NCBI GenBank assembly: GCA_964535955.1
Contig: CAZHVK010000014.1
Coordinates: forward strand, 1 to 34,687
Direction: 5' to 3'
Source of the DNA: an uncultured Methanosarcinales archaeon
GTDB lineage: Archaea; Nanobdellota; Nanobdellia; Woesearchaeales; CAXGTL01
Length of the DNA stretch: 34,687 nt
Position 1 is the stretch's first letter, and each line of letters begins with the position of its first letter. The translations under genes were made by a program, and so were the position numbers. Below the pieces are notes generated by a model. That model did no database searches. It saw only the letters and a list, made by a program, of their open reading frames with translations, and was not told the origin of the DNA. Positions 1 to 19,147 of this stretch are shown piece after piece.

Positions 1-2
1 AA

Positions 3-467: not shown

Positions 468-497
468 ATAATAACATCAAAAGGGGGTGTAAATTAG

Positions 498-1295
498 TTG
501 AGTCAGCTAAGCAGTATAATAGAAAGAATCTTTCCTAAACTTGAACACCATCTTATCTCAGCTAGATTGCCTTATTCTGTAGAGGATTATTCTAAAAGAA
601 TTGTGACAGGTACTGTCTTTATCACAAGCGTGTTTACTTTTTTTAGTTTCATGGTTTTAGGTATTTTGATAGGCTTTCTTACTTTTTTTGCATCATTGGT
701 TGGAAGTTTTTGGTTTTTTGGAAATTATCCTAAAGCTACAATTAAAAAAAGGGAGAAATCAATCAATAGAAATATCTTGTTTGCAGGAAGATACTTATTA
801 ATTAAGCTAGAATCAGGAGCACCATTGTTCTTGTCAATGATTGGTGTTTCTAAGTCATATGGTGAAGCTGGAAAAGCATTTAATGATATTGTGCAAGATA
901 TTAATTTTGGAGCATCTATTGATGGTGCAATAGACAAGGCAATCAAATATAATCCTTGTAAAAATCTGACCAGAATATTATGGGAATTGTCTAATTCAAT
1001 AAAAACAGGAACAGATATAACAAAATCACTTAATGCAATACTTGAACAGATTAGTTCAGAATATATAATTGAAATCGAAAAGTATGGAAGAAAGTTAAAT
1101 TCATTGGTATTATTTTATCTTGTCATGGCAATCATATTTCCTTCATTAGGTTTGACAATGTTTGTTGTTATATCTAGTTTTATTAATGTTCAGATACCTG
1201 GATTTATGTTTTATGTTGTTGGTGCTATGTTAGTATCAATACAATTATTTTTTATTTCATTGTTTAAAGCAGCAAGGCCTGCTGTTAATCTGTGA
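498..1295 (+). CDS. Type II secretion system F-family / TadC-like pilus platform membrane protein
   Basis: TTG start with GGGGGTG SD; N- and C-terminal TM pairs around a soluble domain (LESGAPL..F..IV.DI..G.S...A), typical of T2SSF/TadC; adjacent to ATPase. Confidence 0.88.
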   Translation: MSQLSSIIERIFPKLEHHLISARLPYSVEDYSKRIVTGTVFITSVFTFFSFMVLGILIGFLTFFASLVGSFWFFGNYPKATIKKREKSINRNILFAGRYLLIKLESGAPLFLSMIGVSKSYGEAGKAFNDIVQDINFGASIDGAIDKAIKYNPCKNLTRILWELSNSIKTGTDITKSLNAILEQISSEYIIEIEKYGRKLNSLVLFYLVMAIIFPSLGLTMFVVISSFINVQIPGFMFYVVGAMLVSIQLFFISLFKAARPAVNL

Positions 1296-1300
1296 TTCAC

Positions 1301-2326
1301 ATGAGAAAAATAAAATTATTAGAAAATTTTGGAAAAGCATTTTTGCCAGAACGGTTTAGACCATTTATTAGAAAGTATTTGCAAAAATCTGGTTTTTATG
1401 AAATTCCTTATACTATGTTTGGTGCCTTGTTTTGGGTATCTTCAATTATTACTTTGGGATTGTTTATTTATTTGTGGCCTGTGTTAAGTAAGTTTGCAAA
1501 AAATCCTATTTTTATGTTTTTTACTGTATTTGTAGGCTGGTTTAGTATTCATCTTGTGATTGCATTGATTATAATAGCTCTTATTTATTTTTATTTTGAT
1601 TTTATGATCTATAACAGGACAAAAGATATTGAAAAGGTTCTGCCTGACTTTCTTAATGTATTTTCTGAAAACCTGAGAACAGGAATGACAACTGATAAAG
1701 CTTTGTGGAGAGCTGTTAAACCTGAGTTTGGTGTGCTGGCTTCTGAAGTAAGGATTGCTGCTAAACAAGTTTTAACTGGAAAAGATATTGATATAGCTTT
1801 GACTGAGTTTGCTGATAAATATAATTCTCCTACATTAAATAGATCATTAAAATTGATTATAGAAGGGATGAAGTCTGGTTCAGAGATTGCCATTATTATT
1901 GATAAAGTTGTTGATGATATCAATAAAACCTCTGTTCTAAAAAAGAGAATGGCTGCAAATGCTTTTACTTTTATGATCTTTATTTCGGTGATTGTAATTT
2001 TTATTGCACCTGGACTTTTTGCATTATCACAGAATTTGCTAACAATTATTTCTTCATTTGTTGAAAATCTGCAGGCAAGTAATCTTGCAGCTGTTAACAT
2101 GCCAATAAAATTTGATACTGTTGCAATGGAGCCAAAAGATTTTGAAAATTTTTCTAGATTTGCCTTAATTGTAATTGCATTTTTTTCATCATTGATTGTG
2201 TCTATAATCAGCAAAGGCGAAATAAAAGCTGGAATGAAGTATATTCCTTTGTTTGTTATCTGCTCTTTGTTAAGTCATCTGTTCTTTGTGACTGTTTTGT
2301 CATTTGTGTTTGGAGGTTTGTTTTAA
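1301..2326 (+). CDS. Second T2SSF-family / TadC(TadB)-like pilus platform membrane protein
   Basis: IEKVLPDFL...NLRTGMT..KAL...PEFGVLA.E motif of T2SSF domains, several TM helices; start may be GTG 1292 or ATG 1301. Confidence 0.9.
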   Translation: MRKIKLLENFGKAFLPERFRPFIRKYLQKSGFYEIPYTMFGALFWVSSIITLGLFIYLWPVLSKFAKNPIFMFFTVFVGWFSIHLVIALIIIALIYFYFDFMIYNRTKDIEKVLPDFLNVFSENLRTGMTTDKALWRAVKPEFGVLASEVRIAAKQVLTGKDIDIALTEFADKYNSPTLNRSLKLIIEGMKSGSEIAIIIDKVVDDINKTSVLKKRMAANAFTFMIFISVIVIFIAPGLFALSQNLLTIISSFVENLQASNLAAVNMPIKFDTVAMEPKDFENFSRFALIVIAFFSSLIVSIISKGEIKAGMKYIPLFVICSLLSHLFFVTVLSFVFGGLF

Positions 2327-2736
2327 TGAAGCGTGCACAAACATTATCAATGGACTTAATGGTAGGAATCATGATATTTGTAGGAATGTTGATTGTTTTT
2401 TTTGGAATAATGATGTTTGTTGCTAAGCCGCCTGATGTTTCTGATCTTAATTCTGAAGGAGAACATATTGTAAAGACTTTGGATTCTGTTGAAATGGGTG
2501 TGATAAAAGAGAATCAGATAGATGATAAAGAACTGCAGGAATTGGTTAGCAAGGATTATGACGAACTTAAGAATGAATTAGGTATAAGAAATGAATTTTG
2601 TATATTTTTAGAAGATGAAGAAGGTAATGTAATTCCAATTGAAACAAAGGATGGAAGACTTGTTGCTGGTGTTGGTGATTCAAATGTTGAGATTGGTGTT
2701 GGTGTTGGTGGGCAGCAAATGCTTTGTGGTAAATAA
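2326..2736 (+). CDS. Pilin-like protein with class III signal peptide (136 aa)
   Basis: MKRA|QTLSMD followed by a ~20-aa hydrophobic helix; TAATG stop/start overlap with the upstream gene. Confidence 0.8.
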   Translation: MKRAQTLSMDLMVGIMIFVGMLIVFFGIMMFVAKPPDVSDLNSEGEHIVKTLDSVEMGVIKENQIDDKELQELVSKDYDELKNELGIRNEFCIFLEDEEGNVIPIETKDGRLVAGVGDSNVEIGVGVGGQQMLCGK

Positions 2737-2760
2737 AATAATTAGAATCATAATTAAATC

Positions 2761-2996
2761 AATAAAATAAAATAAAATAAAATAAAATAAAATAAAATAA
2801 AATAAAATAAAATAANNNNNNNNNNNNNNNNNNNNNNNNNNNNNNNNNNNNNNNNNNNNNNNNNNNNNNNNNNNNNNNNNNNNNNNNNNNNNNNNNNNNN
2901 NNNNNNNNNNNNNNNAATAAAATAAAATAAAATAAAATAAAATAAAATAAAATAAAATAAAATAAAATAACAAAATAAAAATAAATAAAAAATAAA
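2761..2996. repeat. (AAAAT)n pentanucleotide microsatellite spanning a 100-N scaffold gap (2816-2915)
   Basis: 11 perfect units on each side of the gap (2761-2815, 2916-2970), degenerate units to ~2996; true length unknown. Confidence 0.95.
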
Positions 2997-3006
2997 GGTG
3001 GTATAA

Positions 3007-3963
3007 ATGAAAAATATAAAAATCATTGAAAAGATTGTCTTGTTTGTTTTAGTAATAATGATGTTGGGAGTGGTTGTGAGTGCATTTAGTGCTTCTGATC
3101 CATGGCATCCTTTGCAACAGATTGTGAGGACTGATGATAATAGTGTGTCTGTTGATGCTGATGGAGATGGTGTGATTGATAATGCTGCACATGCTGTTAC
3201 TGCTACAAGTGCTGAGACTGCTACTACAGCGACTACTGCTACTACTGCACAGAATGCTGTGAATTTAGGTGATGTTGCTGCTAATCTTTATGCAAAAGTT
3301 GCTAATTTGCCTTGGATAGTGTCTGGTGATAATGTTTATAGAAGTAGTGGGAATGTTGGTATTGGTACACCAAGTCCTAATACTAAACTTACTGTTAATG
3401 GTCCTGTTAGATTAATGCCTCAGTCTTCTGCAACATGTGATGCTAATCATGAAGGAACTATCTATTATGATGCTGAAGATGACATGGTATATGTGTGTAA
3501 AAATTCTGCTTGGACAGAGTTTAGGGGGCCACAAGGTGAGCAAGGTATACAAGGTATTCAAGGTCCAAAAGGTGATAAAGGAGATATTGGTGCGACAGGA
3601 GCAACTGGCCCTGCAGGTGCAACAGGTCCACAGGGTGCAAAAGGTGATAAAGGAGATAAAGGAGATACTGGTCCAGCAGGTGCAACTGGTGCAACAGGTC
3701 CGGCAGGTGCAACAGGCGCAACTGGTGGAACAGGTCCGCAAGGTCCACAAGGTCCAGCAGGAACAGTTTCAACTTGTTATTATAACAGTAAGTCTTACAC
3801 TGTTGGTGCTGTATGTAAATTAAATTGTAAAAGAACTTCTGGTACGATGTGTTATCCTGATTATTTTTATGAGTATCAGGTCTGTAGAAGTACTGGTTGG
3901 GATTCAGGATCTAGATGCGTGACTCAGTCATGTACTTACGATCCTCCAACATGTGGCTCCTGA
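3007..3963 (+). CDS. Secreted collagen-like fibre protein
   Basis: GGTGG SD; signal peptide; DADGDGVID loop; Ala/Thr run; [25 protein letters not shown] fibre motif; 27 uninterrupted G-X-Y triplets (3526-3768); Cys-rich C-terminal domain. Confidence 0.88.
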
Positions 3964-4069
3964 AATCAAATAAATAATATTCAAAATAAGAAAATAAAAA
4001 CATGAAAACAAATTCACTAACGTTCGTAGCATTCATTTTGAATGTTCATGAAAAATGGTGATATTCAAA

Positions 4070-6019
4070 ATGAATACAAAAACATTGATAGGAATCTGGA
4101 TTATGATGTTTGTAGTATTGAGTGGTTCATTTGTTTATGCATATTGTGTAGATTCAGATGGAGGCATAGATTACTCTAAAAGAGGAACTGTGAATTATGA
4201 TTTAAGAAGAAAAACTAGAGATTGGTGCTGGCCGTCTGAAAAAAGAGGCAGGGAATTAAAAGAGAATTATTGTTATGGTGGCAAAATTAGAACTACTGGT
4301 GTTAAGTGCACTTGTAGAAATGGTGTTTGTGTTGGAGTTCCTCCATGCAGAGATACAGACAAAGGTTTTGATCATACTGTGAAGGGTGTAATTTATATCT
4401 CTGGAAAAGAAAAAAATGCTGATTATTGTTTAAGTAATGGTAAATTAATGGAATTACATTGTAGAGGATCAGGTTATTCTAAAGAAAATAAAAAAGGTGT
4501 CAATTGTCCTTCTGGAACAGAGTGTAGAGATGGTGCTTGTGTAAAAATAGTATTTGATTTTGATGAAGATGGTCATAATGCAGAGAAATATGGTGGAGAT
4601 GATTGTGATGATAATGATGCGAATATAAAACCAGGTGCAACAGAAGTGTGTGATGGTGTTGATAATAATTGTGTAGGAGGAATAGATGAAGGTTTTAAAG
4701 ATAATGGTTTAACATGTTCTGCAAATACTGAATGTTGTTCAGATATATGTGATGTTAATTGTTGTTCTATTGCTTGTACTGAAAATGATGGTGCTTATGG
4801 AGATTCTTGTAATGGTGGTGATATTAAAACAGAAATAAGAGATTATTTTTGTGATGGTCAAGGTGGATGCACTTTTACATCAAGTTATAATTTAAAGGAC
4901 AATAATCAAGAATATAATTGTGAAGATACTGCTATTGATAGTGATGAGAATAATGGTGATGATCATATTTATGATGTAGGTGGACAATGTACTGATAATG
5001 AACTTTGTTCTGGTAGTGATTCTGCTTGCCCCTCTGCTGTTGTAAAACATGATACTTGTTCTGGTGGTTTGATAGATGCATTTTTAGGAAATGAAGAATT
5101 AACAGAATGGTTTGTACAAGATAATGATTGTGTAAGTGAAACTATTATTTGTGATGCTGAATTAAATGGTTGTGATCCTAGTGCATGTCCTGGTGATGAT
5201 TGTGTGTATAAAGATTATTTTTGTCATGAAGATGATGTTACTGAGAATGATTATTGTGGATTTAATGCAATTGATGTTGATGATAATAATGCTGAATATT
5301 GTGGTCAATGTAATCTTAACAAGATCAAAAGTAATGAAAAATCTGCACATGGTGATTACTCTGCTGATGACATTAGTGACAAGGTTGAAGAATGTTGTGG
5401 TGATGATATTGGTGAATTCTTTTCACTAAATATCTGCGATGATACTCCTGACAATGTTTTTGCATGTTGTGATAAAGCAACTGATTATGTCTATAAAGAT
5501 GGAACATGTGTTGATACTTATGATGATTGTAATGCTAATCCTACTGTTATGAAAAAACTTACAGCACCTAAAAAAATTAAAGGTGGTTCTGTGATTAATA
5601 TAATTCCAGAGGAAGTGTCTGATTATGATAATGATATTTTATCTATTTATTGCGCAGTTGGAATCATGCCTGTTACTATCAGTGATGGAAATCTGGTTAT
5701 TAATGTTGATCTTAATTCTGAATCATATTGTTCTCAAACCAATGTGAAGGATTATAATAATTTAATTTGTGAAGGTTTACGCATTCCTGCAAATAATAAG
5801 ATGAATAAAGTAAAATGTAAAATCTATGATGGAAAAGAATTGTCAAAAGATCTTGATGTTTCTATTAAATCTGATTCAAGTCCTCCTGTTGTTAAGATTA
5901 TAAAAAAAGAACCTGTTGGTGTGAGAAAGTTTACATTTTATAAGAAAGGACAAAAAAAGAAACCTATTGCTACTTCCCTAAATAAAAAACAAACACAAAA
6001 TAATCAAAATGAAGATTAA
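4070..6019 (+). CDS. Secreted Cys/Asp-rich surface protein (MopE-like metal-binding motif; partial paralog of the downstream giant protein)
   Basis: GGTGA SD before ATG 4070 (ORF open from 4055); signal peptide ending VYA; C.D[ST]D.G.D....G repeats; DCDDNDANIKPGATEVCDGVDNNC motif; Lys-rich C-terminal tail. Confidence 0.85.
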   Translation: MNTKTLIGIWIMMFVVLSGSFVYAYCVDSDGGIDYSKRGTVNYDLRRKTRDWCWPSEKRGRELKENYCYGGKIRTTGVKCTCRNGVCVGVPPCRDTDKGFDHTVKGVIYISGKEKNADYCLSNGKLMELHCRGSGYSKENKKGVNCPSGTECRDGACVKIVFDFDEDGHNAEKYGGDDCDDNDANIKPGATEVCDGVDNNCVGGIDEGFKDNGLTCSANTECCSDICDVNCCSIACTENDGAYGDSCNGGDIKTEIRDYFCDGQGGCTFTSSYNLKDNNQEYNCEDTAIDSDENNGDDHIYDVGGQCTDNELCSGSDSACPSAVVKHDTCSGGLIDAFLGNEELTEWFVQDNDCVSETIICDAELNGCDPSACPGDDCVYKDYFCHEDDVTENDYCGFNAIDVDDNNAEYCGQCNLNKIKSNEKSAHGDYSADDISDKVEECCGDDIGEFFSLNICDDTPDNVFACCDKATDYVYKDGTCVDTYDDCNANPTVMKKLTAPKKIKGGSVINIIPEEVSDYDNDILSIYCAVGIMPVTISDGNLVINVDLNSESYCSQTNVKDYNNLICEGLRIPANNKMNKVKCKIYDGKELSKDLDVSIKSDSSPPVVKIIKKEPVGVRKFTFYKKGQKKKPIATSLNKKQTQNNQNED

Positions 6020-9000
6020 TAAAAAGATAGTATGGATGTGGATGGTGATTTTGGTAGTTTTGAGTGGGTTTGTTTTTACTATTACATCTGGCCAAGAATT
6101 TCAAGTGGATGAGTTTTCTGGTGGTGAATCTGACCCAGTTATTTGGATGGATTCAGATGGTAATTTTGTTGTTACATGGGTGAGTGATGATCAGGATGAT
6201 GATAAGTATGGTGTTTATTCAAAAAGATTTGATTCAAATGGTGGTGAACTATCACCTGGAACTAATATTATAATTGATAATCCTGAAACAGACCAAGCAA
6301 CCGGTAATGAGTTTAGAGTCAATACTCATCATAAATGGAATCAATGGTGGCCAGAAATTGCAATATCTTCAAATGGTAATTTTATTGTAGTTTTTCAAGG
6401 GCAGGATATTAATAGTGTTTACTCTACTGGTATTTCCTCGGGAATTCTTGCGAAAAGGTATGATTCTAATGGTCAAGAATTAACTCCTCCTTCTGGAATC
6501 ACATTATCTCCTGCTCCAAGCGGCACTGTAAACAATAATAAAGAGTTTGTAATTAATAGTTATACTTCTTATGACCAATTATTTCCAGATATTGCAATGG
6601 ATACGAATGGAAATTTTGTTGTTGTTTGGCAGAGTAATAGTCAGGATGGAGATTATACTGGTGTTTATGCAAAAAGGTATAATTCTAATGGACAAGAATT
6701 AAATCCAGGTTCAAATGCAATCACAAGTACTGCACAAGGCAAAGAATTTAGAGTTAATACTCAAAATACTAATGATCAAGAAAAACCAAAAATTGCAATG
6801 GCTCCTAATGGTGATTTTGTAATTGTTTGGGAAAGTTATAACCAGGACGGCGGTGGTGATGGGATTTATGCAAAAAGATATTATGCAGATGGTAGAGAAA
6901 AAACACCTCCTAGTGGTGTAACAAGAGGGGAAGGTAATGAATTCTTAGTTAATACAAAAACTTCTGGTAATCAAAGATCTCCTATTATTGGAATCGCACC
7001 AAATGGAGATTTTATCATTGTTTGGGATAATACTTATGCAAAAATGTATTATGCAGATGGTAGAGAAAAAACACCTCCTGCTGGTTCAGAAATTGTTCAA
7101 GGTAATGAGTTTAAATTATCAGCAAAGAAAATTGCATTTGATTCACAAGGTAATTTTATAACAATTTCAACTAAACTTTTTGACAAACCAACTGGAGGTC
7201 AGGCTCAGTATATAGTAGCGCAGAGGTATGATGCAAATGGAGATAAAGTTGGTGCAGAAATTAAAGTAAATAATGATCCTATCTCATGGAGTGCAACTGG
7301 TTGGGGTTTGGATGTTACTATGGAATCTCTTAATGATTTTACAATTGTTTGGGAATATCCTCAAGGTGGGATTTTTGTGAATAAATATGTTCTAAATCAA
7401 AACCCTGGCACTCCTTGTGGTGATGATATTGTATGTACATCAGGAATATGCGATGAACATTGTTGTTCATCAGAATGTCCTGAAGATGGATGGCATTGTG
7501 ATGGTGATTTTGCAGAACGAAGAGAATATTTTTGTGATTCATCAGGAGCGTGCGACTATACTTTTAGTAGTAGAACAGATTGTAATCAAAATGATCAAGC
7601 ATCTGGAGGTTATTTTTGTTCAGATGGAGATATAAAACAAAATTATAAAGATGGTTATTGTGATGATTCAATAAATTATTGTAAGACTCAAGATACTCAA
7701 ATACTTATTGATGATTGTGATTCTGATACTGCTACAGATACAGATAGTGGTAAAGATTATACAACTGGGGGATCTTGCATAAATAAAGAACCTTGTACTT
7801 ATCACACAACTTGTCCTAATCCTGTAACAACTCCTGATAATTGTATATCAACTAACACTCTTTATGAAAGGTTTGTTTTGAACAATGATTGTAGTTTTGA
7901 ATCTTTTCAATGTTCTACACTTAACAGTTGTTCTGGTGATTGTCCTGGATGTGTGTATAATGAGTATTCTTGTTTTAATACTAATGAAGATTATTGTAAA
8001 CCAGAAGCAAAAGATCCGGATACAGATTCTTCTTATTGTAATTCATGTTTAGGAGATAATAAGTGGGATGTGGGAGGAGATATCTCATCTGGGTGTTGTG
8101 GAGATGATTCTAGTGAATTTTATTCACCGAATAAATGTGATGGTGTTGGTGTTGATGTTAATGCTTGTTGTGATAATGAAAATGATTTTGTAAATAAAGA
8201 TGGCCAATGTGTTGAACAATGCTGTGAATGTGAAATAGATGGACAATGTCATCCAACAGAAACAGGTAAGAGATGTAATGGATGTGATTATATTGGTGTT
8301 AATGATATTCCTGTTGAATTGACATGTGATGGTATTGATGAAGATTGTGATGGTAATTTTGATGAAGGTGTTATAAATACTTATTATCAAGATAATGATG
8401 ATGATAATTATGGTGACCCTGTTGCAGATCCATTAACATCTTGCGGTGTTATACCTAGTTCTAGTTATTCACGAAATAATATGGATTGTAATGATGCTGA
8501 TGAAGACATCTACCCAAATGCACCTGAAGAATGTGATGGTAAGGATAATGATTGTAATTCAGAAACTCCTGACATATGTGCGCCTGAGATGGGCAGTGTG
8601 ATTATCCAAGAAGATGTTGATAAAGTAATTATCCTACAAGAGGATACTTTTAAAATATTGCCTGGTTCTAAAGTCACAATCATACCACAAGCTGTTGCTG
8701 ATAATAATGGTGATACATTGTCAATGTATTGTAAACTAGATGTTGATGGTGATTATGTGCCTGTTCCTGTAGATAAATGCTCTGGTGATGTTGCTTATTC
8801 TGAAACAGAGGGTTATTCTGATCTAGAATGTGTTGATTTTTCAATATCAGGTGATGATGGTAATCATGAACTAAGTTGTAAATTATATGATAATCAACTG
8901 TATTCTGAAACACAGACAGTATCAATCATAATTGATTCAGCGCAGCCAGAAATACAAGATTATGTATCTGCGCCAGATGGATTGACTGTGTCTAAATTAG

Positions 9001-12000
9001 TTAAGTTAGAAGATCCTGAAGAATTGGTTGACGATGTTTCTGGTGATCCTCCATTAGAAATCCCTTTAGAAACACAGATAAGTTTTACAATCACTACTGA
9101 TGAACCTTCAAGATGTAAATATGATACAGAGGATAAATCATATGAAGATATGAGAAACACATTAACAGCAACATTTGTAATGAGTCATACAAAGATCTTT
9201 AATTCACTGCTTTATGATCAGGATAATAATTTTTATATAAGATGTGAAGATGAGATTGGTAATTTTAATACTGTTTCTTATAAAGCTGTGATCAACCTTG
9301 GACCAGCACCAGAAGTAGTTGAACAAACATTGTTTTGTGAAATAGGTAGTTCTGTAGAAATTGGTACTGATTCTATTTCATTTGAGTTTACAACTGATGA
9401 AGATTCTATTTGTAAGTATAGTGATGATGAAAATAAAGATTATGATGATAATGAAATGATTGATATTGACGAGGATTATGTTACAGATCATACTATGCAA
9501 CTTGATAATCTTAAATATAATCTAAATTACAAATTCTATGTCAAATGTAAAGATGATGTTGGAAATATTAATATTGATCCATATATTGTTGAGATTGATC
9601 TTGGTGAAGATCCTGAAGGTCAAGGTATTAGTGTGTTCCATATATCTGATCTTGTGAATGCGCAGGCAGAGTTAGCTAGCGAACAAAATTATGATTGGCA
9701 TGTTTATTGTAGAAGCAAGGTTGGTGAACTTTCTATTGATTGTGCTGATCCTGAAATTGATCCTGAACAAATTGTTGTAAGATTGTCTGATACAACAAAT
9801 GCTCATGTTGAGCAAGGTGATCAGAATAATTATGCTAATGATGTTTGTCTGTCTAATACTGATGATAGTTATGAAGTTGATTGTATGTATTCACAAGCAC
9901 CTTGTGCTGAAGGATATACATGTGTTGCTTCTTTGTCAAGTGTGATAAGTGCTCATGTGTCTAGCTGTGCTGTTGCTGATAAATATTCTCATAATATTTG
10001 TTGTAAACAAAGGGAAGAGATTATTGATTGTAGTTTATTGACTGATAATGATGTTTGTGATACTTATTGTATTTATGAAGATCCTGAATGTGTGCATGAA
10101 CATCAATGGCCAATTGGAATTTATGAACCATATTGTTGTAATATAGGTGATGAAGTAAAGACAGGTGATGATTGTATGCCTGGTGGTGTTGCAGAGCCTC
10201 ATATCAATTGTGAAACAGAACAAGTGATGACTGATCCGCATTTACACACATTCGAGATACAGTTTGAACATATAATGATTGAATCTGGTACTATAAGTTG
10301 TGACATTGATACAAGGGATGGAAGTGATCTTTTAGTTCCATTGACTGTTTCAGAAGAATTTGATACAATGCCTGTAGATGGGAAAATTGAATTAAGTTAT
10401 ACTCTAAAAAACACAGACAACATAGACAGGACAAAGCCTTGGATAATAAAGTCTTGCTCAATTGAAACAGAAGATACAAGGTTTAAAGAAATGTTTGATG
10501 AAAAGTTTGCAGATCTTGATGAAAAAGTTTATGTGCATGGGAATACATGGACTGGGTTGATTAATACTGATGATGATGCGTACAGAGCATATTATTGTTA
10601 TTATAACACTCCTGGAAAATATTTTGATAATGATGTAAAATGTGATTGGGTGGGTGATTTAGTTTTTGCTAAAGCAAAAAGCAAGAAGTTTGGTGCTGTT
10701 GAAATAATCTGTGATGATGAAGTAGATAATGATGGAACAGGTGATGGTGCTGACTGTGCTGATTCTAATTGTCATGGAATAGCAGTCCCAATATGTCCAA
10801 TAGATGGTGATGGAAAAAATATTTATTCTAGTATTCATCCAAAGCTTTCTTCAGATTCAGATGATGAGATTACATTAAGTTCTGATTTTGCTGATGATAG
10901 TGACATGTTATCACTTGTAACTGGATTATTTTCAAAAGTAACTGGTGAAGCTGTTGCACCTATTGGTTCTGTTTGTAAAGGAAATATTTGTGAAGGTACT
11001 TTGTCTGATTCAAATATTAAAATTTGGTATACTCAACATGTTAATACTGTTAATGGAATATTTAAGATGAGGTTTGATTTAGGAATTGTTGATTCTGGTT
11101 CTGATACTAGTACTACGATTGGTAATCTTCCTTCTCCTCCTCAGCCTGTTTATGGTCTAGAGGTTGGTCCTTTAAAATATGGGTTGACTGGGAGAACAGA
11201 AAATCTTGATTCTTTTATAACAACTGCAAAAGTTGATGGACATGTTGATCAAGTAATGTCTGCATTATTTACAAGTGTTGCAGATGGTATAACAGTTGTT
11301 GATGCAAGTGCAATTGTTGGTGGTGATCCTATTCAAGATAAAGAAAACATAAAGTTTTATGCTGATACTAGTGCTCCTGTTAATAATGATGAATCTGATT
11401 CTAATGTCTATTCAGACCCTGTTGACAATGATTATTATCTGTATGGAACGATTGGTGATGATGGTGATAATATAGGGCAGAATCAAAATAATCCTTGTAA
11501 TGATGGTATTGATAATGATTTAGATTACAAACCTGATTGTAAAGATCCTAATTGTTATGGCGAAGTTATTGGAAAGACAGCTGAAATAATTGGTGGTGAA
11601 ATAACATTGCATGATGATATAAAATGTGAAGCAGCAGAAACAACTTGTTGGGATGGTTATGATAATGATCATGATGGTTTGGTTGATTGTGCTGATGAAG
11701 ATTGTGATGGAAAGATTGGTGCTTATGTTTATAATAATATTCCTCAGAAATTTAAAAAGACTGGTTATGATTCTGTTGTTGTTTGTGAAAAACCAGAAGG
11801 AAGTAATAATGATAAAGAGACTGCACCTTATTATGATGAAGGAATATTGGATAGTGATACAAGGTTAGGTAGTTGTTCTGATAAGTTTGATAATGATGCT
11901 GATAATAATCCTTGGAATGAAATAACTTGTGAAGATGTTGATGAATGTATAGAACGAAACATTGATTGTTATGATCTATTTAGTTGTTGGGGTAAGGGCG

Positions 12001-15000
12001 ATGATAGTGCTCCATGTCCTCTAAAAGAAACAATCTGTGATGATGGTGTTGATAATGATTTTGATTATAGAATAGGTACTGGTGCTGTAAGGTTTGGTAG
12101 TGCAGATAATTGGTTAGGTATTGATAATTATAAACCATATGGATTTGGACCATTTAGTATATACTTTACTGGAACTGATAATGGTGCTGATTGTTTTGAT
12201 TATGATTGTAAAGGAAAAGGTAGTTGTCCTCTTACTGAATCTGTTGATCATGCTAATTGTTTTGATGGGTATGATAATGATCTTGATGCTTATGTGTGGA
12301 GTGATACTGATAATAATTATGTCAAGAATCCTGATTCAAAAGCTGGTATTGATTGCCAAGATTTTGATTGTCTGAATGTTGAAAATCCTAATAAGCCAGG
12401 TGAAAAATGTTATCCATCTGAATTTAATTTGTTTGCATGGGATGTATGTAAAGATGGTGTTGATAATGATTATGATGATTTACCAAATAATGATGGGAGT
12501 AAGACAGATGGTAGAGATAATATTAATGAAGGTGTAGAAGGTGCTGGTGTAGATTGTTATCATAGAACAGATTATTGTGGTGTTCCTGGTTATCCTGGAT
12601 TGTCTGTTCATGAAAATATAAATGTGTTTGCATGTGCTGATAAAAGTGCTAGTGGTAATGATATTGATAATGATTTAATTGATGGTGCTAATTGTGCTGA
12701 TCATGGTGATTGTGATAATATGTTGGGTAGTTATTCTGGTGCAAGATGTGTTGCTGATGGTGATGAAACAGGTGGTTATTGTGGTGATGGTTTAGATAAT
12801 GATGCTGATGGTAAAACTGATTGTGAAGATGCAGATTGTCATAATGATGCTGATGATAAAGGGTCAAGAGGACAAACTTGTGTTTTAAATGAAGCTAGTG
12901 ATACTTATTGTTCAGATGGTTATGATAATGATGCTGATGGTCATGTTGATTGTCTTGATATTGATTGTTATGCTGTATTTGTGTGTGATAGTGAAAAAGA
13001 TTGGAGTAATGCTGATTGTTTAAGTGTTCCTTATGTTGTGAATGGTGATGTTGGTGTTGGTGGTTCTGTCTCATTTAATCATCAAGAAAGATTGCACATG
13101 GATGATAATTATGCACTTAGTCTGTCTGGTTCAAAAGCACCTAATAATTATGATGAATTGACAATCTTTGTAGGAGAAAATGATGTTGCATGGGGTAAAA
13201 GGTTTCCTTATGATACAAGTACATGTAGTTTACAAGGAACTAATGCTGATTATTTTATATTTACTAAGGAAACTTATATGCTTGCTTTAGAAAAAGTATC
13301 TAGTGCAAGTTTTGATTCATTTGATGTTGAGATTGTTTGCACTGGTATTGATCAAGTTACTGAAGAAAGGTCATATGTTGTTGATGTGAGTGCAACTTCT
13401 ATGATTGGGTTAATTGAAGAAGCTGAATCAAAAAGTGTTGAGTTAAAAACACAAGTCTATGAAAACACACCACCAATTATCTCTGACATACATGTTAGTG
13501 GTTTAGATATTGCAACAAATACTGTTGAATTAGTGTATGAAGATAAGTTAGAATTTAGAGGCTTGCCTAATGCTGATGGATCAGGAATCTGTGGTTGTGA
13601 ATTTACTGGTGATATAACAGAAGATGATACTGGTGTTCCTACAGGTGGTAATTGCATAACTTCTATGGAGATAACAAAAGATTATCCTGCTGGTATTCTT
13701 CCTGATGGAGAATTTAAGATCAATGCAAGAGCAACAGACGGTGCTGGTAATATTGGTGGATTAAAAGAAAAATCATTTAATATAATTGTCAAGCCAAAAG
13801 AAATAACAGAGAATTATGAATTAGGTAGAATATTTTATAATTCTGCTGATTATACTAATGTTGATGTTGGTGAGTTTAAATTTATAACAGCAACAAATAG
13901 AGAATTTAAACCTGATTGTAAGTTTAATATTAAAAAACCTGATGGAACACTAGTAAAAACATATGATGAAACAGGAACAGTTACAAATAATGAACTTAGT
14001 TGTACTAAAACTTTGGATTTGGTTGATGTTGGTGTTGCTGCACAAGATGGTATGTATTTAGTAAATGTTGAGGTAAGTGATAAAGATAAACCAGAATTCA
14101 TAATTAATTCAAAACCAAAGATCTTCTTTGTGTGTAATAATGAAAATAGTAAAGATGAAGAAAATGGACTTTGGGATTGTCAATATCTTGACATGGACAA
14201 TGATGGTGTGCCTGAAGGATTGACTACAACTATTTATGATCCTGATGGTGTTATAGAATTACCATGTGATAATTGTCCTGAAGATCCTAATCCTGAGCAA
14301 GGTGATTGGAATGCAAATGGTTTGGGTGATGTTTGTGATTGTGGATATGACAATATAGCAACTGACGGAGAATGTGATGAAGCTTGTGAAGCTTATGATC
14401 CTGACTGTGGTTGTCATGTTGAAGAAGAACCTTGTTATGAAGGTTATGATTTAAAGTGTCCGGGACCAGATTCAACTGTAGAAGAAGGCTGCTCATCAGA
14501 ACTTATTTGTAATTCTGATGGCATATGCGATTCTAATCAAAAAGAAACATGTGCTTGTGTTGATTGTTATACTAAAGCTAATCCAGATGATCATTTACCT
14601 AATGATGCATGTGTAAAAGGATTGGTTTGTAATCCTATCCTCATTGGTGAATGTATGTGTGATTCTATTTCAGATGGTTTTTGTCCAACAAATACAAAAG
14701 ATTTTGAATATTGTAGTACAATTCCTGATGGTGAAACTTTACCACGTGATCCTGATTGTTTAATAAAACCAGTTAGAATAATATATCCTGGTGGTGATCC
14801 TGATAAAGAAGATATTGTTACAGGCCCTGACAAAGTAATAATTCATTGGGCAAAAGATGTGCAAGATCTTGATCATAAGATTTATTTTGATCTTGATTAT
14901 ACTGATAATGCAGGTTCTGAAGATGAATGGCATGAAATAGTAAATGGTGCTGAAGCTGTTCCTGCAACTAAAAGAGATGATGATAATTATATTTATTATG

Positions 15001-15944
15001 AACTTGATATTTCAGATCCAACTAAGTTTCCTAATCTTAATAAAAAATATCAAATCAAGATTACACCTAGGTTAATGTCAGGTGATACTGTTCTTCAGTC
15101 TGGGAATGAGATAAAATCTGCTGTGTTTAGTATTTGTAGGCTGGAGGATTCAAAGATTAGGGTAAAAGTATTAGATAGACTTGATAATGATAAACTTCTT
15201 GTTGGAGCCAATGTTAAAATAATAAGTGAAAAAGATCCAACAAATATTGTTGAAGGTGATATAAGGGCTAGTGATACTGGTGGAAGATTATTTGAAGGAC
15301 TTAATCCTAAAGAAAATTATAATATAGAAGTTACACCTCCTGGTACTCCTACTTATACTAATTACCAAAAACAGTCTAGAACAATAACAACAGAATATTG
15401 TAAAGAAAATTTACCAATATTTAAATTAGATAAATGTGGTGATGGAACTTGTGTTAAGGCTGAAGGTGAATATTGTACTAATTGTGAAGATTGTGATTGT
15501 GTAGTAGATGAATCACAAGATCAATATTGTGATCCAGGAGACCTAACTGTTAGTCCTCCTGTTGTTCCTTCTTGTAAAGATAAACCTAGTGGACCATGCC
15601 CTATTGGTATTAATTATTGTTGGGGTAGTACTGGTGAGTGCGATGCTTCAGAAGGTTGTTGTTGTGAAGATTGTTATGATAAAGGATTAGTTAATAAGCC
15701 ATGGAAATTTTGTGATTATGATGAAGAAACAGATACTGTAGAAGAAATTTGTGCATGTTATCTAGATTGTGATTCAGTAGCTAATGATAATTTAAAAACA
15801 GAATGTGAAAATTGTCAACAAGGTTGTGCTCAATCACAAGAAGCAAAGATCAATGTTGATCTGGCTGAAAACATAATAACAACTACAAAGATTGTTACAT
15901 ATAAAGGAAAACCAGTAAAAATGAAGATTGTTGTCTGGAATTAA
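6009..15944 (+). CDS. Giant (3311 aa) secreted Cys/Asp-rich mosaic adhesin-like protein
   Basis: Uninterrupted 9.9-kb ORF; signal peptide; N-terminal EF.VN...Q..P.IAM..NG.F.VVW repeats; MopE-like motif; two TTDE.S.CKY Ig-like repeats; three S....AH/NAQ repeats; many C.DG.DND.D...DC.D.DC repeats; TSP3-like CDNCP..NP.Q.D.N.NG.GDVCD; carboxypeptidase-regulatory-like domain; no C-terminal TM helix. Confidence 0.92.
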   Translation: MKINKKIVWMWMVILVVLSGFVFTITSGQEFQVDEFSGGESDPVIWMDSDGNFVVTWVSDDQDDDKYGVYSKRFDSNGGELSPGTNIIIDNPETDQATGNEFRVNTHHKWNQWWPEIAISSNGNFIVVFQGQDINSVYSTGISSGILAKRYDSNGQELTPPSGITLSPAPSGTVNNNKEFVINSYTSYDQLFPDIAMDTNGNFVVVWQSNSQDGDYTGVYAKRYNSNGQELNPGSNAITSTAQGKEFRVNTQNTNDQEKPKIAMAPNGDFVIVWESYNQDGGGDGIYAKRYYADGREKTPPSGVTRGEGNEFLVNTKTSGNQRSPIIGIAPNGDFIIVWDNTYAKMYYADGREKTPPAGSEIVQGNEFKLSAKKIAFDSQGNFITISTKLFDKPTGGQAQYIVAQRYDANGDKVGAEIKVNNDPISWSATGWGLDVTMESLNDFTIVWEYPQGGIFVNKYVLNQNPGTPCGDDIVCTSGICDEHCCSSECPEDGWHCDGDFAERREYFCDSSGACDYTFSSRTDCNQNDQASGGYFCSDGDIKQNYKDGYCDDSINYCKTQDTQILIDDCDSDTATDTDSGKDYTTGGSCINKEPCTYHTTCPNPVTTPDNCISTNTLYERFVLNNDCSFESFQCSTLNSCSGDCPGCVYNEYSCFNTNEDYCKPEAKDPDTDSSYCNSCLGDNKWDVGGDISSGCCGDDSSEFYSPNKCDGVGVDVNACCDNENDFVNKDGQCVEQCCECEIDGQCHPTETGKRCNGCDYIGVNDIPVELTCDGIDEDCDGNFDEGVINTYYQDNDDDNYGDPVADPLTSCGVIPSSSYSRNNMDCNDADEDIYPNAPEECDGKDNDCNSETPDICAPEMGSVIIQEDVDKVIILQEDTFKILPGSKVTIIPQAVADNNGDTLSMYCKLDVDGDYVPVPVDKCSGDVAYSETEGYSDLECVDFSISGDDGNHELSCKLYDNQLYSETQTVSIIIDSAQPEIQDYVSAPDGLTVSKLVKLEDPEELVDDVSGDPPLEIPLETQISFTITTDEPSRCKYDTEDKSYEDMRNTLTATFVMSHTKIFNSLLYDQDNNFYIRCEDEIGNFNTVSYKAVINLGPAPEVVEQTLFCEIGSSVEIGTDSISFEFTTDEDSICKYSDDENKDYDDNEMIDIDEDYVTDHTMQLDNLKYNLNYKFYVKCKDDVGNINIDPYIVEIDLGEDPEGQGISVFHISDLVNAQAELASEQNYDWHVYCRSKVGELSIDCADPEIDPEQIVVRLSDTTNAHVEQGDQNNYANDVCLSNTDDSYEVDCMYSQAPCAEGYTCVASLSSVISAHVSSCAVADKYSHNICCKQREEIIDCSLLTDNDVCDTYCIYEDPECVHEHQWPIGIYEPYCCNIGDEVKTGDDCMPGGVAEPHINCETEQVMTDPHLHTFEIQFEHIMIESGTISCDIDTRDGSDLLVPLTVSEEFDTMPVDGKIELSYTLKNTDNIDRTKPWIIKSCSIETEDTRFKEMFDEKFADLDEKVYVHGNTWTGLINTDDDAYRAYYCYYNTPGKYFDNDVKCDWVGDLVFAKAKSKKFGAVEIICDDEVDNDGTGDGADCADSNCHGIAVPICPIDGDGKNIYSSIHPKLSSDSDDEITLSSDFADDSDMLSLVTGLFSKVTGEAVAPIGSVCKGNICEGTLSDSNIKIWYTQHVNTVNGIFKMRFDLGIVDSGSDTSTTIGNLPSPPQPVYGLEVGPLKYGLTGRTENLDSFITTAKVDGHVDQVMSALFTSVADGITVVDASAIVGGDPIQDKENIKFYADTSAPVNNDESDSNVYSDPVDNDYYLYGTIGDDGDNIGQNQNNPCNDGIDNDLDYKPDCKDPNCYGEVIGKTAEIIGGEITLHDDIKCEAAETTCWDGYDNDHDGLVDCADEDCDGKIGAYVYNNIPQKFKKTGYDSVVVCEKPEGSNNDKETAPYYDEGILDSDTRLGSCSDKFDNDADNNPWNEITCEDVDECIERNIDCYDLFSCWGKGDDSAPCPLKETICDDGVDNDFDYRIGTGAVRFGSADNWLGIDNYKPYGFGPFSIYFTGTDNGADCFDYDCKGKGSCPLTESVDHANCFDGYDNDLDAYVWSDTDNNYVKNPDSKAGIDCQDFDCLNVENPNKPGEKCYPSEFNLFAWDVCKDGVDNDYDDLPNNDGSKTDGRDNINEGVEGAGVDCYHRTDYCGVPGYPGLSVHENINVFACADKSASGNDIDNDLIDGANCADHGDCDNMLGSYSGARCVADGDETGGYCGDGLDNDADGKTDCEDADCHNDADDKGSRGQTCVLNEASDTYCSDGYDNDADGHVDCLDIDCYAVFVCDSEKDWSNADCLSVPYVVNGDVGVGGSVSFNHQERLHMDDNYALSLSGSKAPNNYDELTIFVGENDVAWGKRFPYDTSTCSLQGTNADYFIFTKETYMLALEKVSSASFDSFDVEIVCTGIDQVTEERSYVVDVSATSMIGLIEEAESKSVELKTQVYENTPPIISDIHVSGLDIATNTVELVYEDKLEFRGLPNADGSGICGCEFTGDITEDDTGVPTGGNCITSMEITKDYPAGILPDGEFKINARATDGAGNIGGLKEKSFNIIVKPKEITENYELGRIFYNSADYTNVDVGEFKFITATNREFKPDCKFNIKKPDGTLVKTYDETGTVTNNELSCTKTLDLVDVGVAAQDGMYLVNVEVSDKDKPEFIINSKPKIFFVCNNENSKDEENGLWDCQYLDMDNDGVPEGLTTTIYDPDGVIELPCDNCPEDPNPEQGDWNANGLGDVCDCGYDNIATDGECDEACEAYDPDCGCHVEEEPCYEGYDLKCPGPDSTVEEGCSSELICNSDGICDSNQKETCACVDCYTKANPDDHLPNDACVKGLVCNPILIGECMCDSISDGFCPTNTKDFEYCSTIPDGETLPRDPDCLIKPVRIIYPGGDPDKEDIVTGPDKVIIHWAKDVQDLDHKIYFDLDYTDNAGSEDEWHEIVNGAEAVPATKRDDDNYIYYELDISDPTKFPNLNKKYQIKITPRLMSGDTVLQSGNEIKSAVFSICRLEDSKIRVKVLDRLDNDKLLVGANVKIISEKDPTNIVEGDIRASDTGGRLFEGLNPKENYNIEVTPPGTPTYTNYQKQSRTITTEYCKENLPIFKLDKCGDGTCVKAEGEYCTNCEDCDCVVDESQDQYCDPGDLTVSPPVVPSCKDKPSGPCPIGINYCWGSTGECDASEGCCCEDCYDKGLVNKPWKFCDYDEETDTVEEICACYLDCDSVANDNLKTECENCQQGCAQSQEAKINVDLAENIITTTKIVTYKGKPVKMKIVVWN

Positions 15945-15945
15945 A

Positions 15946-16566
15946 ATGATAACTAAAAAGAGATTAAGTATAAAGAGATTAGGTAGAAACAGAAAGTATT
16001 TAGGTAGAAATAAAGGATATTTTTTTTCTATAGATGCTGTTACTGCTGTTGGAATTCTATTGATTGGTATTTTTCTTGTCTTTTATATTATTTCATCAGA
16101 GCCAATGGAAACGCCTGCTTATCATTTGTCAGAAGATATTATCAATGTTTTATCAAAGACAGAGATAAGTAATTTGAGTGAGGTTGATTATTTCAAATAT
16201 AAAAATGATTATCCTGAAGTTTATAATTTGATCAAGAATAAAGAAACAGATAATACAGTGCTTGAACAAGTTGGTGAATATTATTATGACTATTCTAAGA
16301 CTCCTCCTAGATTCAATTCTAAAATAAAAGCTAAAGATCTTGTTCATGTTATGGTAAAAGGTCTTATTCCTAATCAATATAGATTTACTTTAAGAATTGT
16401 AAAACCAGGTGGTACTTTTGAAGAAATTTATACAAAGCAAAGTGATATTACTCTTATTGCAGATGATGCAGAAGTTAGAATTGCAATCAAGAAAATGGTT
16501 TTTGGTCAAACAAAAGAGAATGATGTTTGGGGGCCGTATGTTGTTGAAGCTGTTGTATGGAGATAA
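15946..16566 (+). CDS. Pilin-like protein with class III signal peptide
   Basis: Basic leader then NKG|YFFSID and a hydrophobic helix; ATG 1 nt after the giant gene's stop; C-terminus GPYVVEAVVWR. Confidence 0.82.
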   Translation: MITKKRLSIKRLGRNRKYLGRNKGYFFSIDAVTAVGILLIGIFLVFYIISSEPMETPAYHLSEDIINVLSKTEISNLSEVDYFKYKNDYPEVYNLIKNKETDNTVLEQVGEYYYDYSKTPPRFNSKIKAKDLVHVMVKGLIPNQYRFTLRIVKPGGTFEEIYTKQSDITLIADDAEVRIAIKKMVFGQTKENDVWGPYVVEAVVWR

Positions 16567-16569
16567 AAA

Positions 16570-17781: not shown

Positions 17782-17787
17782 TAAAAA

Positions 17788-18300: not shown

Positions 18301-18405
18301 TAATAATCTTTATATATAATTAGGTTAAATTCATATATATAAATAAGATAATCTCTTATATAAATTGATTGTAATTATATAAATAAATTAAATAAGGTGA
18401 TAATA

Positions 18406-19038: not shown

Positions 19039-19147
19039 ACAATCTATCACACCAAAACCTTTATATATGCAGTGCCTCATAATTATATTATAATTAAATA
19101 ATTATATAAATAAATTATATGAAAAACAAACAAAAGAGGTGCATACA

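What the first reader, a model, noticed from the sequence alone, without database searches (positions are those of the whole stretch)
2326..16566. Possible split pilin / donor-strand docking: the giant adhesin ends in a pilin C-terminal segment that the upstream pilin lacks
Seen: the last ~30 aa of the 3311-aa protein (DLAENIITTTKIVTYKGKPVKMKIVVWN, nt ~15855-15944) align with the C-terminus of the next pilin (DDAEVRIAIKKMVFGQ...GPYVVEAVVWR, nt ~16459-16566), sharing D.AE..I...K.V and P.....VVW. The 136-aa pilin (2326-2736) resembles that pilin in its N-terminal part (S.D after the class III cleavage site, E.I...L helix, F.[IL].[LI]....G strand) but ends in ..MLCGK without this segment. The giant protein has a Sec-type rather than class III signal and no TM anchor. 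Established: beta-strand donation is used by chaperone-usher pili, and beta-strand addition has been proposed for PilY1/PilC binding to minor pilins. Inference: the adhesin completes the fold of the short pilin in trans and is displayed on a DPANN type IV pilus, possibly for host attachment. I do not know of a description of this in archaea.
Basis: partly seen in the sequence, partly recalled or inferred. Interest (0 to 1): 0.9.

Follow-up and report, generated by a model that had tools for sequence, protein, structure and literature searches.

The report
Conserved tail on archaeal pilus adhesin

Summary
The likeness between the giant protein's tail and the end of the 206-aa pilin is not above chance: 395 of 5000 shuffles reach it, hhalign gives 0.23 %, and the second genome does not repeat it. 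The 136-aa pilin is not a truncated pilin. It belongs to a family of at least 454 clusters with a median length of 140 aa, has a near-invariant Cys pair, and folds confidently alone at pLDDT 91.8.

The tail itself is real. It is a 26-aa segment whose residue pattern suggests an amphipathic hairpin, set on a linker. It recurs at the extreme C-terminus of an otherwise divergent 703-aa secreted protein in a related locus, again directly upstream of the same minor-pilin pair (0 of 5000 shuffles).

In a third locus the 403-aa-type minor pilin is naturally split. Its C-terminal part sits at the end of a Sec-secreted, Cys-rich 1110-aa protein.

My best reading is an adapter that docks the adhesin on the minor-pilin tip complex. 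This would parallel bacterial PilC/PilY1 β-strand addition, published in 2026.

The parts
3..467 (+). C-terminal part of the pilus assembly ATPase (FlaI/PilB-like), cut by the window edge
   Evidence: Pfam T2SSE E=5.9e-9. NCBIfam FlaI model E=3.8e-17, below its cut-off.
498..1295 (+). Platform protein 1 (T2SSF domain)
   Evidence: Pfam T2SSF E=1e-8. Weak UpsF match.
1292..2326 (+). Platform protein 2 (T2SSF, ArlJ-like). Two platform genes are the layout of archaeal T4F 'system 1'.
   Evidence: Pfam T2SSF E=5.6e-9. ArlJ/FlaJ model E=7.2e-12, below its cut-off. PMC13705601 section 11.
2326..2736 (+). 136-aa small pilin (RA|QTLSMD). It is a complete member of a large family and probably the filament-forming pilin.
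   Evidence: phmmer gives 454 clusters at E<=1e-3. Median length of the best 150 is 140 aa. C134 is invariant and C92 is at >=90 %. AF2 pLDDT 91.8.
3007..3963 (+). 318-aa secreted collagen-like protein
   Evidence: Pfam Collagen E=2.8e-13. One N-terminal hydrophobic segment.
4055..6019 (+). 654-aa secreted Cys-rich protein. It shares a CCGDD-type module with the giant protein and has no tail.
   Evidence: MopE motif E=3.7e-11. 7.6 % Cys and one N-terminal hydrophobic segment. It is not among the 15 best of the 91 matches at E<=50 that I printed for the tail HMM, the 15th at E=10. The shared module is from my reading.
6009..15944 (+). 3311-aa secreted, acidic, Cys-rich giant adhesin-like protein
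   Evidence: 5.3 % Cys, 19.4 % D+E, a single N-terminal hydrophobic segment. MopE motif and acidic double-disulfide repeats.
15864..15941 (+). 26-aa C-terminal tail of the giant protein: two alternating-hydrophobic stretches around a YKGK turn, ending in VVWN. This is the proposed docking adapter.
   Evidence: Conserved in the L005 703-aa protein: best BLASTP HSP E=1e-4 and 0 of 5000 shuffles. The tail HMM finds only these two among 924 ORFs.
15946..16566 (+). 206-aa minor pilin (KG|YFFSID) with conserved WGPY..E..VW[RQ] end. It starts 1 nt after the giant's stop codon.
   Evidence: AF2 pLDDT 80.8 with a four-strand sheet.
16570..17781 (+). 403-aa minor pilin-like protein (KG|MFLSLIA) without the acidic residue. 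Candidate apical cap subunit and candidate tail acceptor.
   Evidence: Follows the 206-type gene in all 4 loci with downstream sequence, and in the window. Acidic residue at +6 in 0 of 5. Split in L002.

Best explanation
The region is a type IV pilus locus of a low-GC archaeon with a system 1 (Epd-like) layout, holding the following.
- An ATPase and two platform genes.
- A small, complete pilin of 136 aa.
- Three Sec-secreted surface proteins.
- A conserved pair of minor pilins. The 206-aa one carries the usual acidic residue. The 403-aa one lacks it, as the apical PilK/GspK subunit does in bacteria.

The 3311-aa protein is a secreted adhesin without any membrane anchor. Its last 26 residues follow a linker, and their residue pattern suggests an amphipathic beta-hairpin.

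I propose that this tail is an adapter that fixes the adhesin to the pilus tip. It would add its strands to the beta-sheet of a minor pilin: the 403-aa cap, the 206-aa pilin, or their interface. The bacterial parallel is the last ~10 residues of PilC/PilY1 completing the sheet of PilK.

Shown: the locus make-up, the conservation and position of the tail, the completeness of the 136-aa pilin, and the split minor pilin in a related locus.

Inferred: that the tail binds a pilin at all, and which one.
For: 1. The tail is conserved where almost nothing else is. Between the giant protein and the 703-aa protein of L005, the best BLASTP HSP is the two extreme C-termini (E=1e-4, 21 of 59 identical). 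The only other HSP below E=1 is a CCGDD module. Tail against tail scores 66 against 21.4 +/- 4.8 for shuffles, reached by 0 of 5000.

2. The position is conserved. In both genomes the tailed gene lies directly upstream of the 206-type pilin gene, which is followed by the 403-type gene. The spacer is 1 nt in the window and 30 nt in L005.

3. The tail follows a stretch I read as linker-like (GPPRLSSTAAVRPELVSD in L005). One face of its last stretch is all hydrophobic (my reading).

4. None of the secreted proteins has an anchor other than the N-terminal signal.

5. The 403-type family has an acidic residue at +6 in 0 of 5 members, against 6 of 6 for the 206-type family. PMC13533445 states that PilK homologues lack Glu+5 and accept the PilC/PilY1 strand (passages).

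6. In L002 the 403-type pilin is split.
- A 138-aa ORF covers profile positions 1-108 (E=4.8e-18).
- Residues 868-1105 of a Sec-signal-bearing 1110-aa Cys-rich protein cover positions 138-349 (E=1.5e-28).
- The two ORFs overlap in ATGA.
- So trans-completion of a pilin by an adhesin's C-terminus probably does occur in this system family.

7. Among the 5 genomes with sequence downstream of the 206-type gene (the window and 4 loci; L003 is too short), the 2 with a tailed adhesin have the short 403-type forms (403 and 354 aa). The 3 without a tailed adhesin carry an insertion or the adhesin itself at one site of the 403-type protein.
Against: No binding test was obtained.
- Complex prediction never ran.

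Only two independent tails are known.
- They are the window and L005. P0006 is a near copy of the L005 protein.
- A word-based search with the tail profile found nothing else among 35 candidates.
- The search for relatives of the giant's C-terminal 362 aa found only itself among 3116 candidates.
- So generality is unknown, and conservation between two orthologous-looking proteins does not by itself prove docking.

The tail has no sequence likeness to PilC/PilY1, and the giant has no PilC Pfam match.

The 206-aa pilin model is complete on its own, with four strands and the last blocks at pLDDT 86-90. The 403-aa protein was not modelled, so no open groove has been seen in any candidate acceptor.

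The L002 split could in principle be an assembly frameshift in a metagenome-assembled genome. The canonical signal peptide at the start of the second ORF argues otherwise.
Confidence: 0.45

Rival explanations
1. The 136-aa pilin is an incomplete pilin, and the giant's tail supplies its missing C-terminal strands in trans. The tail would be a copy of the segment that the 206-aa pilin has in cis.
For: - Literal identities link the window's tail and the window's 206-aa pilin end.
- Short pilins and tailed adhesins occur together in the window and in L005. In L005 the two short pilin genes lie directly upstream of the tailed gene.
- No short pilin is found in L001 or L004, which also lack a tail.
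Against: - The likeness is at chance level and is absent in L005's own pair: 395 of 5000 and 2285 of 5000 shuffles. hhalign gives 0.23 % and the HMM gives no hit.
- The short pilin family has at least 454 clusters with a median of 140 aa. C134 is invariant, C92 is at >=90 %, and the conserved end is GIGS...G..CG.
- It folds alone at pLDDT 91.8, with 80-88 over its last residues.
- 0 of 150 listed representatives end in a VW motif. None matches the tail HMM better than E=0.24.
- The family is far commoner than the tail.
- A major pilin present in thousands of copies is an unlikely single-copy anchor for a 3311-aa protein (inference).
- Its co-occurrence with the tail cannot be separated from co-occurrence with the whole machinery locus.
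Confidence: 0.1
2. The tail anchors the adhesin to something other than the pilus, for example the S-layer, the membrane surface or another envelope protein. Its position in a pilus locus would only reflect co-regulation.
For: - The tail is Lys-rich and ends in Trp, which suits binding to acidic or lipid surfaces (my reading).
- The protein lacks any other anchor.
- Nothing in the calls shows contact with a pilin.
Against: - The tailed gene is tightly joined to the minor-pilin pair in 2 of 2 cases.
- In L002 an adhesin-like protein is physically part of a minor pilin.
- The tail profile found no further protein in the word-based search of the whole collection, which would be odd for a general envelope anchor. 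That search was weak, with only 35 candidates.
Confidence: 0.2
3. The tail is only the last structural element of the adhesin's own C-terminal Cys-rich domain, or a folding cap. It docks on nothing.
For: The BLASTP HSP extends about 30 residues upstream of the hairpin into a Cys-containing stretch. The conserved unit may therefore be a roughly 59-aa terminal module.
Against: - The stretch between the last Cys and the hairpin reads as a linker and is not conserved in length or sequence (A2).
- Two strands cannot fold alone (established knowledge).
- The rest of the two proteins is almost unrelated.
Confidence: 0.15
4. The tail is a sorting or export signal. It would be recognised by the pilus machinery acting as a secretion piston, or by a C-terminal processing enzyme, and would not be a lasting attachment.
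For: It sits at the extreme C-terminus, is conserved, and lies in a type IV filament locus. Type IV filaments include secretion systems (PMC13533445, passages).
Against: - The protein already carries a Sec-type signal.
- The tail has no hydrophobic helix plus basic tail of the kind seen in known archaeal C-terminal sorting signals (recalled, not tested).
- No candidate processing enzyme was seen in the window.
Confidence: 0.1

Closest known systems
[quoted passage not shown] Sources: PMC13533445, abstract and passages read; PMC13711793, abstract read.
   Same: - A large, non-pilin, Sec-exported adhesin is encoded next to minor pilin genes.
- A short conserved peptide sits at its extreme C-terminus.
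- An apical minor pilin lacks the conserved acidic residue.
- In related systems the complementing element can be supplied in cis or in trans. Here the comparison is the intact 403-type pilins against the split one in L002.
   Different: - The domain is Archaea.
- There is no sequence relation and no PilC beta-propeller Pfam match.
- The tail is about 26 aa with a two-strand pattern rather than about 10 aa and one strand.
- The adhesin gene lies upstream, not downstream, of the candidate acceptor.
- Binding is untested here.
TadG/CpaL and T2SS GspK: the apical minor pilin supplies the last strand itself, sometimes after a large insertion (PMC13533445, passages).
   Same: The 403-type family has an insertion hot spot inside the pilin fold. 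L001 and L004 carry about 125 aa there, and L002 carries a whole adhesin there. This recalls the large insertions between acceptor sheet and donor strand described for CpaL.
   Different: In L002 the protein is cut into two genes, and the second has its own Sec signal. I did not see that described in the passages I read.
Archaeal T4F system 1 (Epd-type pili) as classified in PMC13705601 (passages and section 11 read).
   Same: An ATPase plus two platform genes, several pilins, and presence in DPANN (Nanobdellati). That paper notes large adhesin-like proteins in archaeal T4F loci.
   Different: The paper's passages do not describe how adhesins are attached. The three pilin families here have no Pfam family. 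The main Epd pilin is said to lack a globular domain, whereas the 136-aa pilin has one.
Chaperone-usher donor-strand complementation, and archaeal donor-strand filaments such as threads, cannulae and Tat-dependent pili (search listing only).
   Same: The concept of completing a beta-sheet with a strand from another polypeptide.
   Different: Those are polymerisation mechanisms of Ig-like subunits outside the type IV filament superfamily. No chaperone or usher is present here, and no subunit was seen to lack a strand.

Membership tests
Type IV pilin (class III signal peptide protein): 136-aa, 206-aa and 403-aa proteins | A short basic leader ending in G/A, followed by a ~20-residue hydrophobic helix | tested here: met
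   The N-termini read RA|QTLSMD..., KG|YFFSID..., KG|MFLSLIA.... AF2 gives N-terminal helices 3-32 and 23-50. hhalign aligns the N-terminal 43 columns of the two families at 93 %.
Type IV pilin (class III signal peptide protein) | Encoded with a T4F assembly ATPase and platform protein | tested here: met
   T2SSE and two T2SSF genes at 3..2326. The same holds in L005 and L002.
Type IV pilin (class III signal peptide protein) | Cleavage by a prepilin peptidase (PibD/EppA/FlaK type) | not testable with these tools
   No peptidase A24 gene was found in the window. Cleavage needs an experiment.
PilC/PilY1 tip adhesins: the giant protein | C-terminal PilC/PilY1 beta-propeller domain | tested here: not met
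   Pfam scan of the 3311-aa protein at E<=0.01 gives only the MopE motif. The PDB sequence search gives one weak teneurin hit.
PilC/PilY1 tip adhesins: the giant protein | The extreme C-terminal peptide completes the beta-sheet of the apical minor pilin | not tested
PilK/GspK-like apical minor pilin: the 403-aa protein | Lacks the conserved acidic residue of the mature N-terminus | tested here: met
   0 of 5 family members have D/E at +6, against 6 of 6 in the 206-type family. The criterion comes from PMC13533445.
PilK/GspK-like apical minor pilin: the 403-aa protein | Fold similar to GspK/PilX | not tested
   No model of the 403-aa protein was made. The Atlas gives only unnamed archaeal clusters and a DUF7286 lead at 0.87. 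Pfam has no match at threshold.
Archaeal T4F system 1 (Epd-like) | Platform protein encoded by two genes, plus an ATPase | tested here: met
   Definition read in PMC13705601 section 11 and in the system 2 passage.
Chaperone-usher type donor-strand acceptor: the 136-aa pilin | A subunit fold lacking its last strand, with an open groove | tested here: not met
   The AF2 monomer has pLDDT 91.8 with strands up to residue 133. C134 is invariant and C92 is at >=90 %. Family lengths cluster at 127-179 aa. A model cannot exclude a free sheet edge.

The most novel reading that the evidence does not exclude
Archaeal type IV pili carry Sec-secreted adhesins at their tip by trans-completion of a minor pilin. 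The donated piece would range from a 26-aa hairpin tail (window, L005) to the whole C-terminal half of the cap pilin (L002). Tip-complex beta-strand addition was shown in 2026 for bacterial T4aP, T2SS and Tad pili. On this reading it would be shared by both prokaryotic domains, and in DPANN-type cells it would be the way giant host-contact proteins are mounted.
Probability: 0.3. Interest if true: 0.8.

Novelty: new variant of a known kind. Interest (0 to 1): 0.55.

Why it matters
How small episymbiotic-type archaea hold their very large surface proteins is unknown. These proteins have no membrane anchor.

If the tail is a pilus-tip adapter, three things follow.
- It would give a searchable signature for pilus-mounted adhesins in uncultivated archaea.
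- It would extend the newly established bacterial tip-licensing mechanism to archaeal filaments.
- It would support the view that this mechanism is ancestral to type IV filaments.

The naturally split minor pilin in L002 offers a ready-made test case for trans-complementation.

If the tail instead binds the envelope, it would be a new kind of archaeal surface anchor.

Tried and rejected
- **Complex prediction.** The queue was full, and the job was not forwarded. Nothing was folded, so docking is untested.
- **BLASTP, giant C-terminus against the 206-aa pilin.** It returned only an unrelated weak HSP.
- **Relatives of the giant's last 362 aa.** Only itself among 3116 candidates.
- **Tail profile against longer proteins.** Only P0006 among 35 candidates. 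One search failed on an out-of-range E-value and was corrected.
- **Foldseek of both pilin models against the PDB.** 0 matches at E<=0.001.
- **PDB sequence search with the giant.** One weak 24-residue teneurin match.
- **Pfam at E<=10 for the three pilin families.** Only sub-threshold DUF7287 and DUF7288 matches. The Atlas look-alikes are leads only.
- **A second tail on the 654-aa protein.** Its end has an FYKKG..KKK pattern, but it is not among the 15 best tail-HMM matches that I printed.
- **A cis copy of the tail in the ~125-aa insertion of the L001 403-type protein (...IIVELWQ).** It is not among the 15 best tail-HMM matches that I printed. The insertion aligns instead with a repeated module of the L002 adhesin (my reading).
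- **Supplementary figures.** Those of PMC13705601, including its S10 on DPANN loci, were not seen and may bear on novelty.
Full report
**1. What is in the region**

| Coordinates | Product |
|---|---|
| 3..467 | C-terminal part of a FlaI/PilB-type ATPase |
| 498..1295 | T2SSF platform gene 1 |
| 1292..2326 | T2SSF platform gene 2 |
| 2326..2736 | 136-aa pilin |
| 3007..3963 | 318-aa collagen-like secreted protein |
| 4055..6019 | 654-aa Cys-rich secreted protein |
| 6009..15944 | 3311-aa giant protein |
| 15946..16566 | 206-aa pilin |
| 16570..17781 | 403-aa pilin-like protein |

The rest of the window carries archaeal housekeeping genes: ABCE1/RLI, an archaeal CCA-adding enzyme, a RuBisCO large-subunit homologue and GlmS/GlmM/GlmU-type genes. 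G+C is about 31 %.

Two platform genes plus an ATPase is the layout that PMC13705601 calls archaeal T4F system 1. That paper reports it in methanogens and in DPANN (section 11 read).

The giant protein has one hydrophobic segment, residues 5-31, and none at the C-terminus. It is 5.3 % Cys and 19.4 % Asp+Glu. So 'Sec-type signal, no anchor' is right.

**2. The claimed likeness of the tail to the 206-aa pilin's end**

They are not more than chance gives.
- BLASTP does not report the alignment.
- The local score is 27 against 19.7 +/- 4.4 for shuffled tails, and 395 of 5000 shuffles reach it.
- Against the C-termini of the four other 206-type pilins, the window tail reaches 535, 150, 138 and 123 of 2000 shuffles.
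- In the second genome that has both elements (L005), the tail against its own pilin end gives 2285 of 5000.
- A 35-position HMM of the pilin end, built from 9 sequences, finds the 6 pilins among 924 six-frame ORFs at E <= 5e-17. The next hit is at E = 0.17, and neither tail is listed at E <= 100.
- hhalign of the tail profile against the pilin profile gives 0.23 % over two columns, 'VW'.

At family level, the only things in common are a [VI]W near the end and alternating hydrophobic residues (alignments).

**3. The 136-aa pilin is not a pilin that lost its end**
- phmmer over 1.84 billion representatives gives 454 clusters at E <= 1e-3 and 127 at E <= 1e-10.
- The best 150 have a median length of 140 aa, with the 5th to 95th percentile at 127-179.
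- In a 105-sequence alignment G117 and C134 are invariant. C92 is present in at least 90 % of sequences. The consensus ends in GIGS......G..CG.
- AlphaFold2 with that alignment gives pLDDT 91.8. The model has the N-terminal helix, three short helices and strands up to residue 133. The last two blocks score 80 and 88.
- L005 has an orthologue of 134 aa (E = 8e-17).
- None of the 150 ends in a VW-type motif. None matches the tail HMM better than E = 0.24.
- Its relation to the 206-aa pilin is confined to the class III signal and helix: 43 columns at 93 %.

A model cannot, however, exclude a free sheet edge.

**4. What is real: the tail**

The scan of genome contigs with the 206-type pilin alignment gave five loci. 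In L005 the same set of genes occurs:
- two short pilins;
- a 703-aa Sec-signal Cys-rich protein;
- a 206-type pilin and a 403-type pilin;
- then an ATPase and two platform genes.

The 703-aa protein ends in ...VENIKTFQHTVNYKGKKIKMYVTIWENDE. The giant ends in ...AENIITTTKIVTYKGKPVKMKIVVWN.

Evidence that this match is real:
- Between these two proteins the best BLASTP HSP is exactly these C-termini (E = 1e-4). The only other HSP below E = 1 is a CCGDD module at E = 2e-4.
- Tail against tail beats all 5000 shuffles.
- The tail HMM finds only these two among 924 ORFs. It finds only their database copies, P0005 and P0006, among the 156 stored proteins.

Features of the tail:
- It follows a stretch that reads as a linker and is not conserved.
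- Its pattern is two alternating-hydrophobic stretches around YKGK. One face of the last stretch is fully hydrophobic. That is what a pair of strands lying on a hydrophobic core would look like (my reading; no structure was predicted for it).
- In both genomes the tailed gene is immediately upstream of the 206-type gene. The spacers are 1 nt and 30 nt.

**5. The minor-pilin pair and a natural split**

The 206-type gene is followed at once by a 403-type gene in the window and in all 4 loci with downstream sequence. L003 is too short to tell.

After the [KR][GA] site, the 206-type proteins have D/E at +6 in 6 of 6 cases. The 403-type proteins have it in 0 of 5. PMC13533445 states that PilK homologues invariably lack Glu+5 and are the most apical minor pilins (passage).

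In L002 the 403-type protein is in two pieces.
- ORF 7654..8070 (138 aa) matches profile positions 1-108 (E = 4.8e-18).
- ORF 8067..11399 (1110 aa) matches positions 138-349 with its residues 868-1105 (E = 1.5e-28) (BLASTP).
- The two ORFs overlap in ATGA.
- The second starts with a canonical signal peptide, MRSLVLLLLLAVCLGAGAEA.
- It is 7.9 % Cys.

Unless this is an assembly error, here an adhesin-like protein carries the C-terminal part of a pilin, and the pilin's N-terminal piece lacks it.

L001 and L004 have an insertion of about 125 aa at the same site of their 403-type proteins. So among the 5 genomes with sequence downstream of the 206-type gene (the window and 4 loci; L003 is too short):
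- the 2 with tailed adhesins have the plain 403-type form;
- the 3 without a tail have extra material inserted in the 403-type protein.

This pattern is suggestive, but the numbers are too small to test.

**6. Mechanism**

I commit to the tail being an adapter that mounts the adhesin on the minor-pilin tip complex by sheet augmentation. I rate this at 0.45. The acceptor would be the 403-aa cap, the 206-aa pilin or their interface.
- Shown: conservation, position, lack of another anchor, the cap-like character of the 403-type family, and the split in L002.
- Inferred: binding itself and the acceptor.

The co-fold that would discriminate among them could not be run.

**7. Comparison with what is known**

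The closest known system is bacterial PilC/PilY1.
- Two 2026 papers show that its last ~10 residues add a strand to PilK/PilX and are needed for piliation and tip retention: PMC13533445 (abstract and passages) and PMC13711793 (abstract).
- GspK and CpaL supply that strand in cis.
- The 'archaea' passages of PMC13533445 that I read mention archaea only in general terms (the archaellum in the introduction).

The giant protein is not a member of the PilC/PilY1 family, since it has no propeller domain match. The comparison is therefore functional only.

My literature searches found no description of an archaeal adhesin mounted by a C-terminal tail. They were (listings), plus passages of PMC13705601. 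Donor-strand complementation is known for other archaeal filaments (listing). I could not see the supplementary figures of PMC13705601.

**8. Verdict**

The finding is a new variant of a known kind if the docking holds. I score interest at 0.55. It stays well above ordinary because of the conserved tail and the split minor pilin.

Noticed in passing
L002:7654-8070 and L002:8067-11399: The 403-type minor pilin is split into a 138-aa N-terminal pilin piece and a Sec-signal-bearing 1110-aa Cys-rich protein. The last ~240 residues of the second protein are the rest of the pilin fold. The ORFs overlap in ATGA.
   Followed up: yes
L001:10537-12012 and L004:10519-12000: The 403-type proteins of these loci carry an insertion of about 125 aa at the same site where L002 is split. 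The insertion looks beta-rich to my reading. It resembles a module repeated in the L002 1110-aa protein.
   Followed up: partly
proteins P0063, P0018, P0020, P0065 (hits): Some members of the short-pilin family carry C-terminal extensions. These include Cys-rich repeats and, in the 726-aa P0063, what reads like a beta-propeller repeat region. They look like modular pilins, with the adhesive part fused directly to the pilin.
   Followed up: no
window 3007-3963: A secreted protein with a collagen triple-helix repeat region (Pfam Collagen E=2.8e-13) and a Cys-rich end lies inside an archaeal pilus locus.
   Followed up: no
window 4055-6019 and 6009-15944: The 654-aa protein and the giant protein share a CCGDD..E[FW][FY]S module, which is also present in the L005 703-aa protein. 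The giant's start codon overlaps the end of the 654-aa gene by 11 nt.
   Followed up: partly
L005:661-1032: A second short-pilin paralogue matches the family only in its globular part (profile positions 63-134, E=1.7e-11). It has no recognisable class III cleavage motif at its N-terminus.
   Followed up: no
window 1-20000: G over C skew is strongly positive (0.2-0.41 in 2-kb windows) across the whole pilus locus, where all genes are on the + strand. It falls to around zero or below in some later parts of the window.
   Followed up: no
window 19139-20446: A RuBisCO large-subunit homologue (Pfam E=9.8e-91) lies about 1.4 kb downstream of the pilus locus. I recall, but did not test, that this fits the nucleotide-salvage RuBisCO common in DPANN genomes.
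   Followed up: no
L001:3765-4748 and L001:4745-5803: Two adjacent lipoprotein-like ORFs have related C-terminal ends (...EYGY/RYGY...S...K[IV].IK). They appear unrelated to the tail studied here.
   Followed up: no
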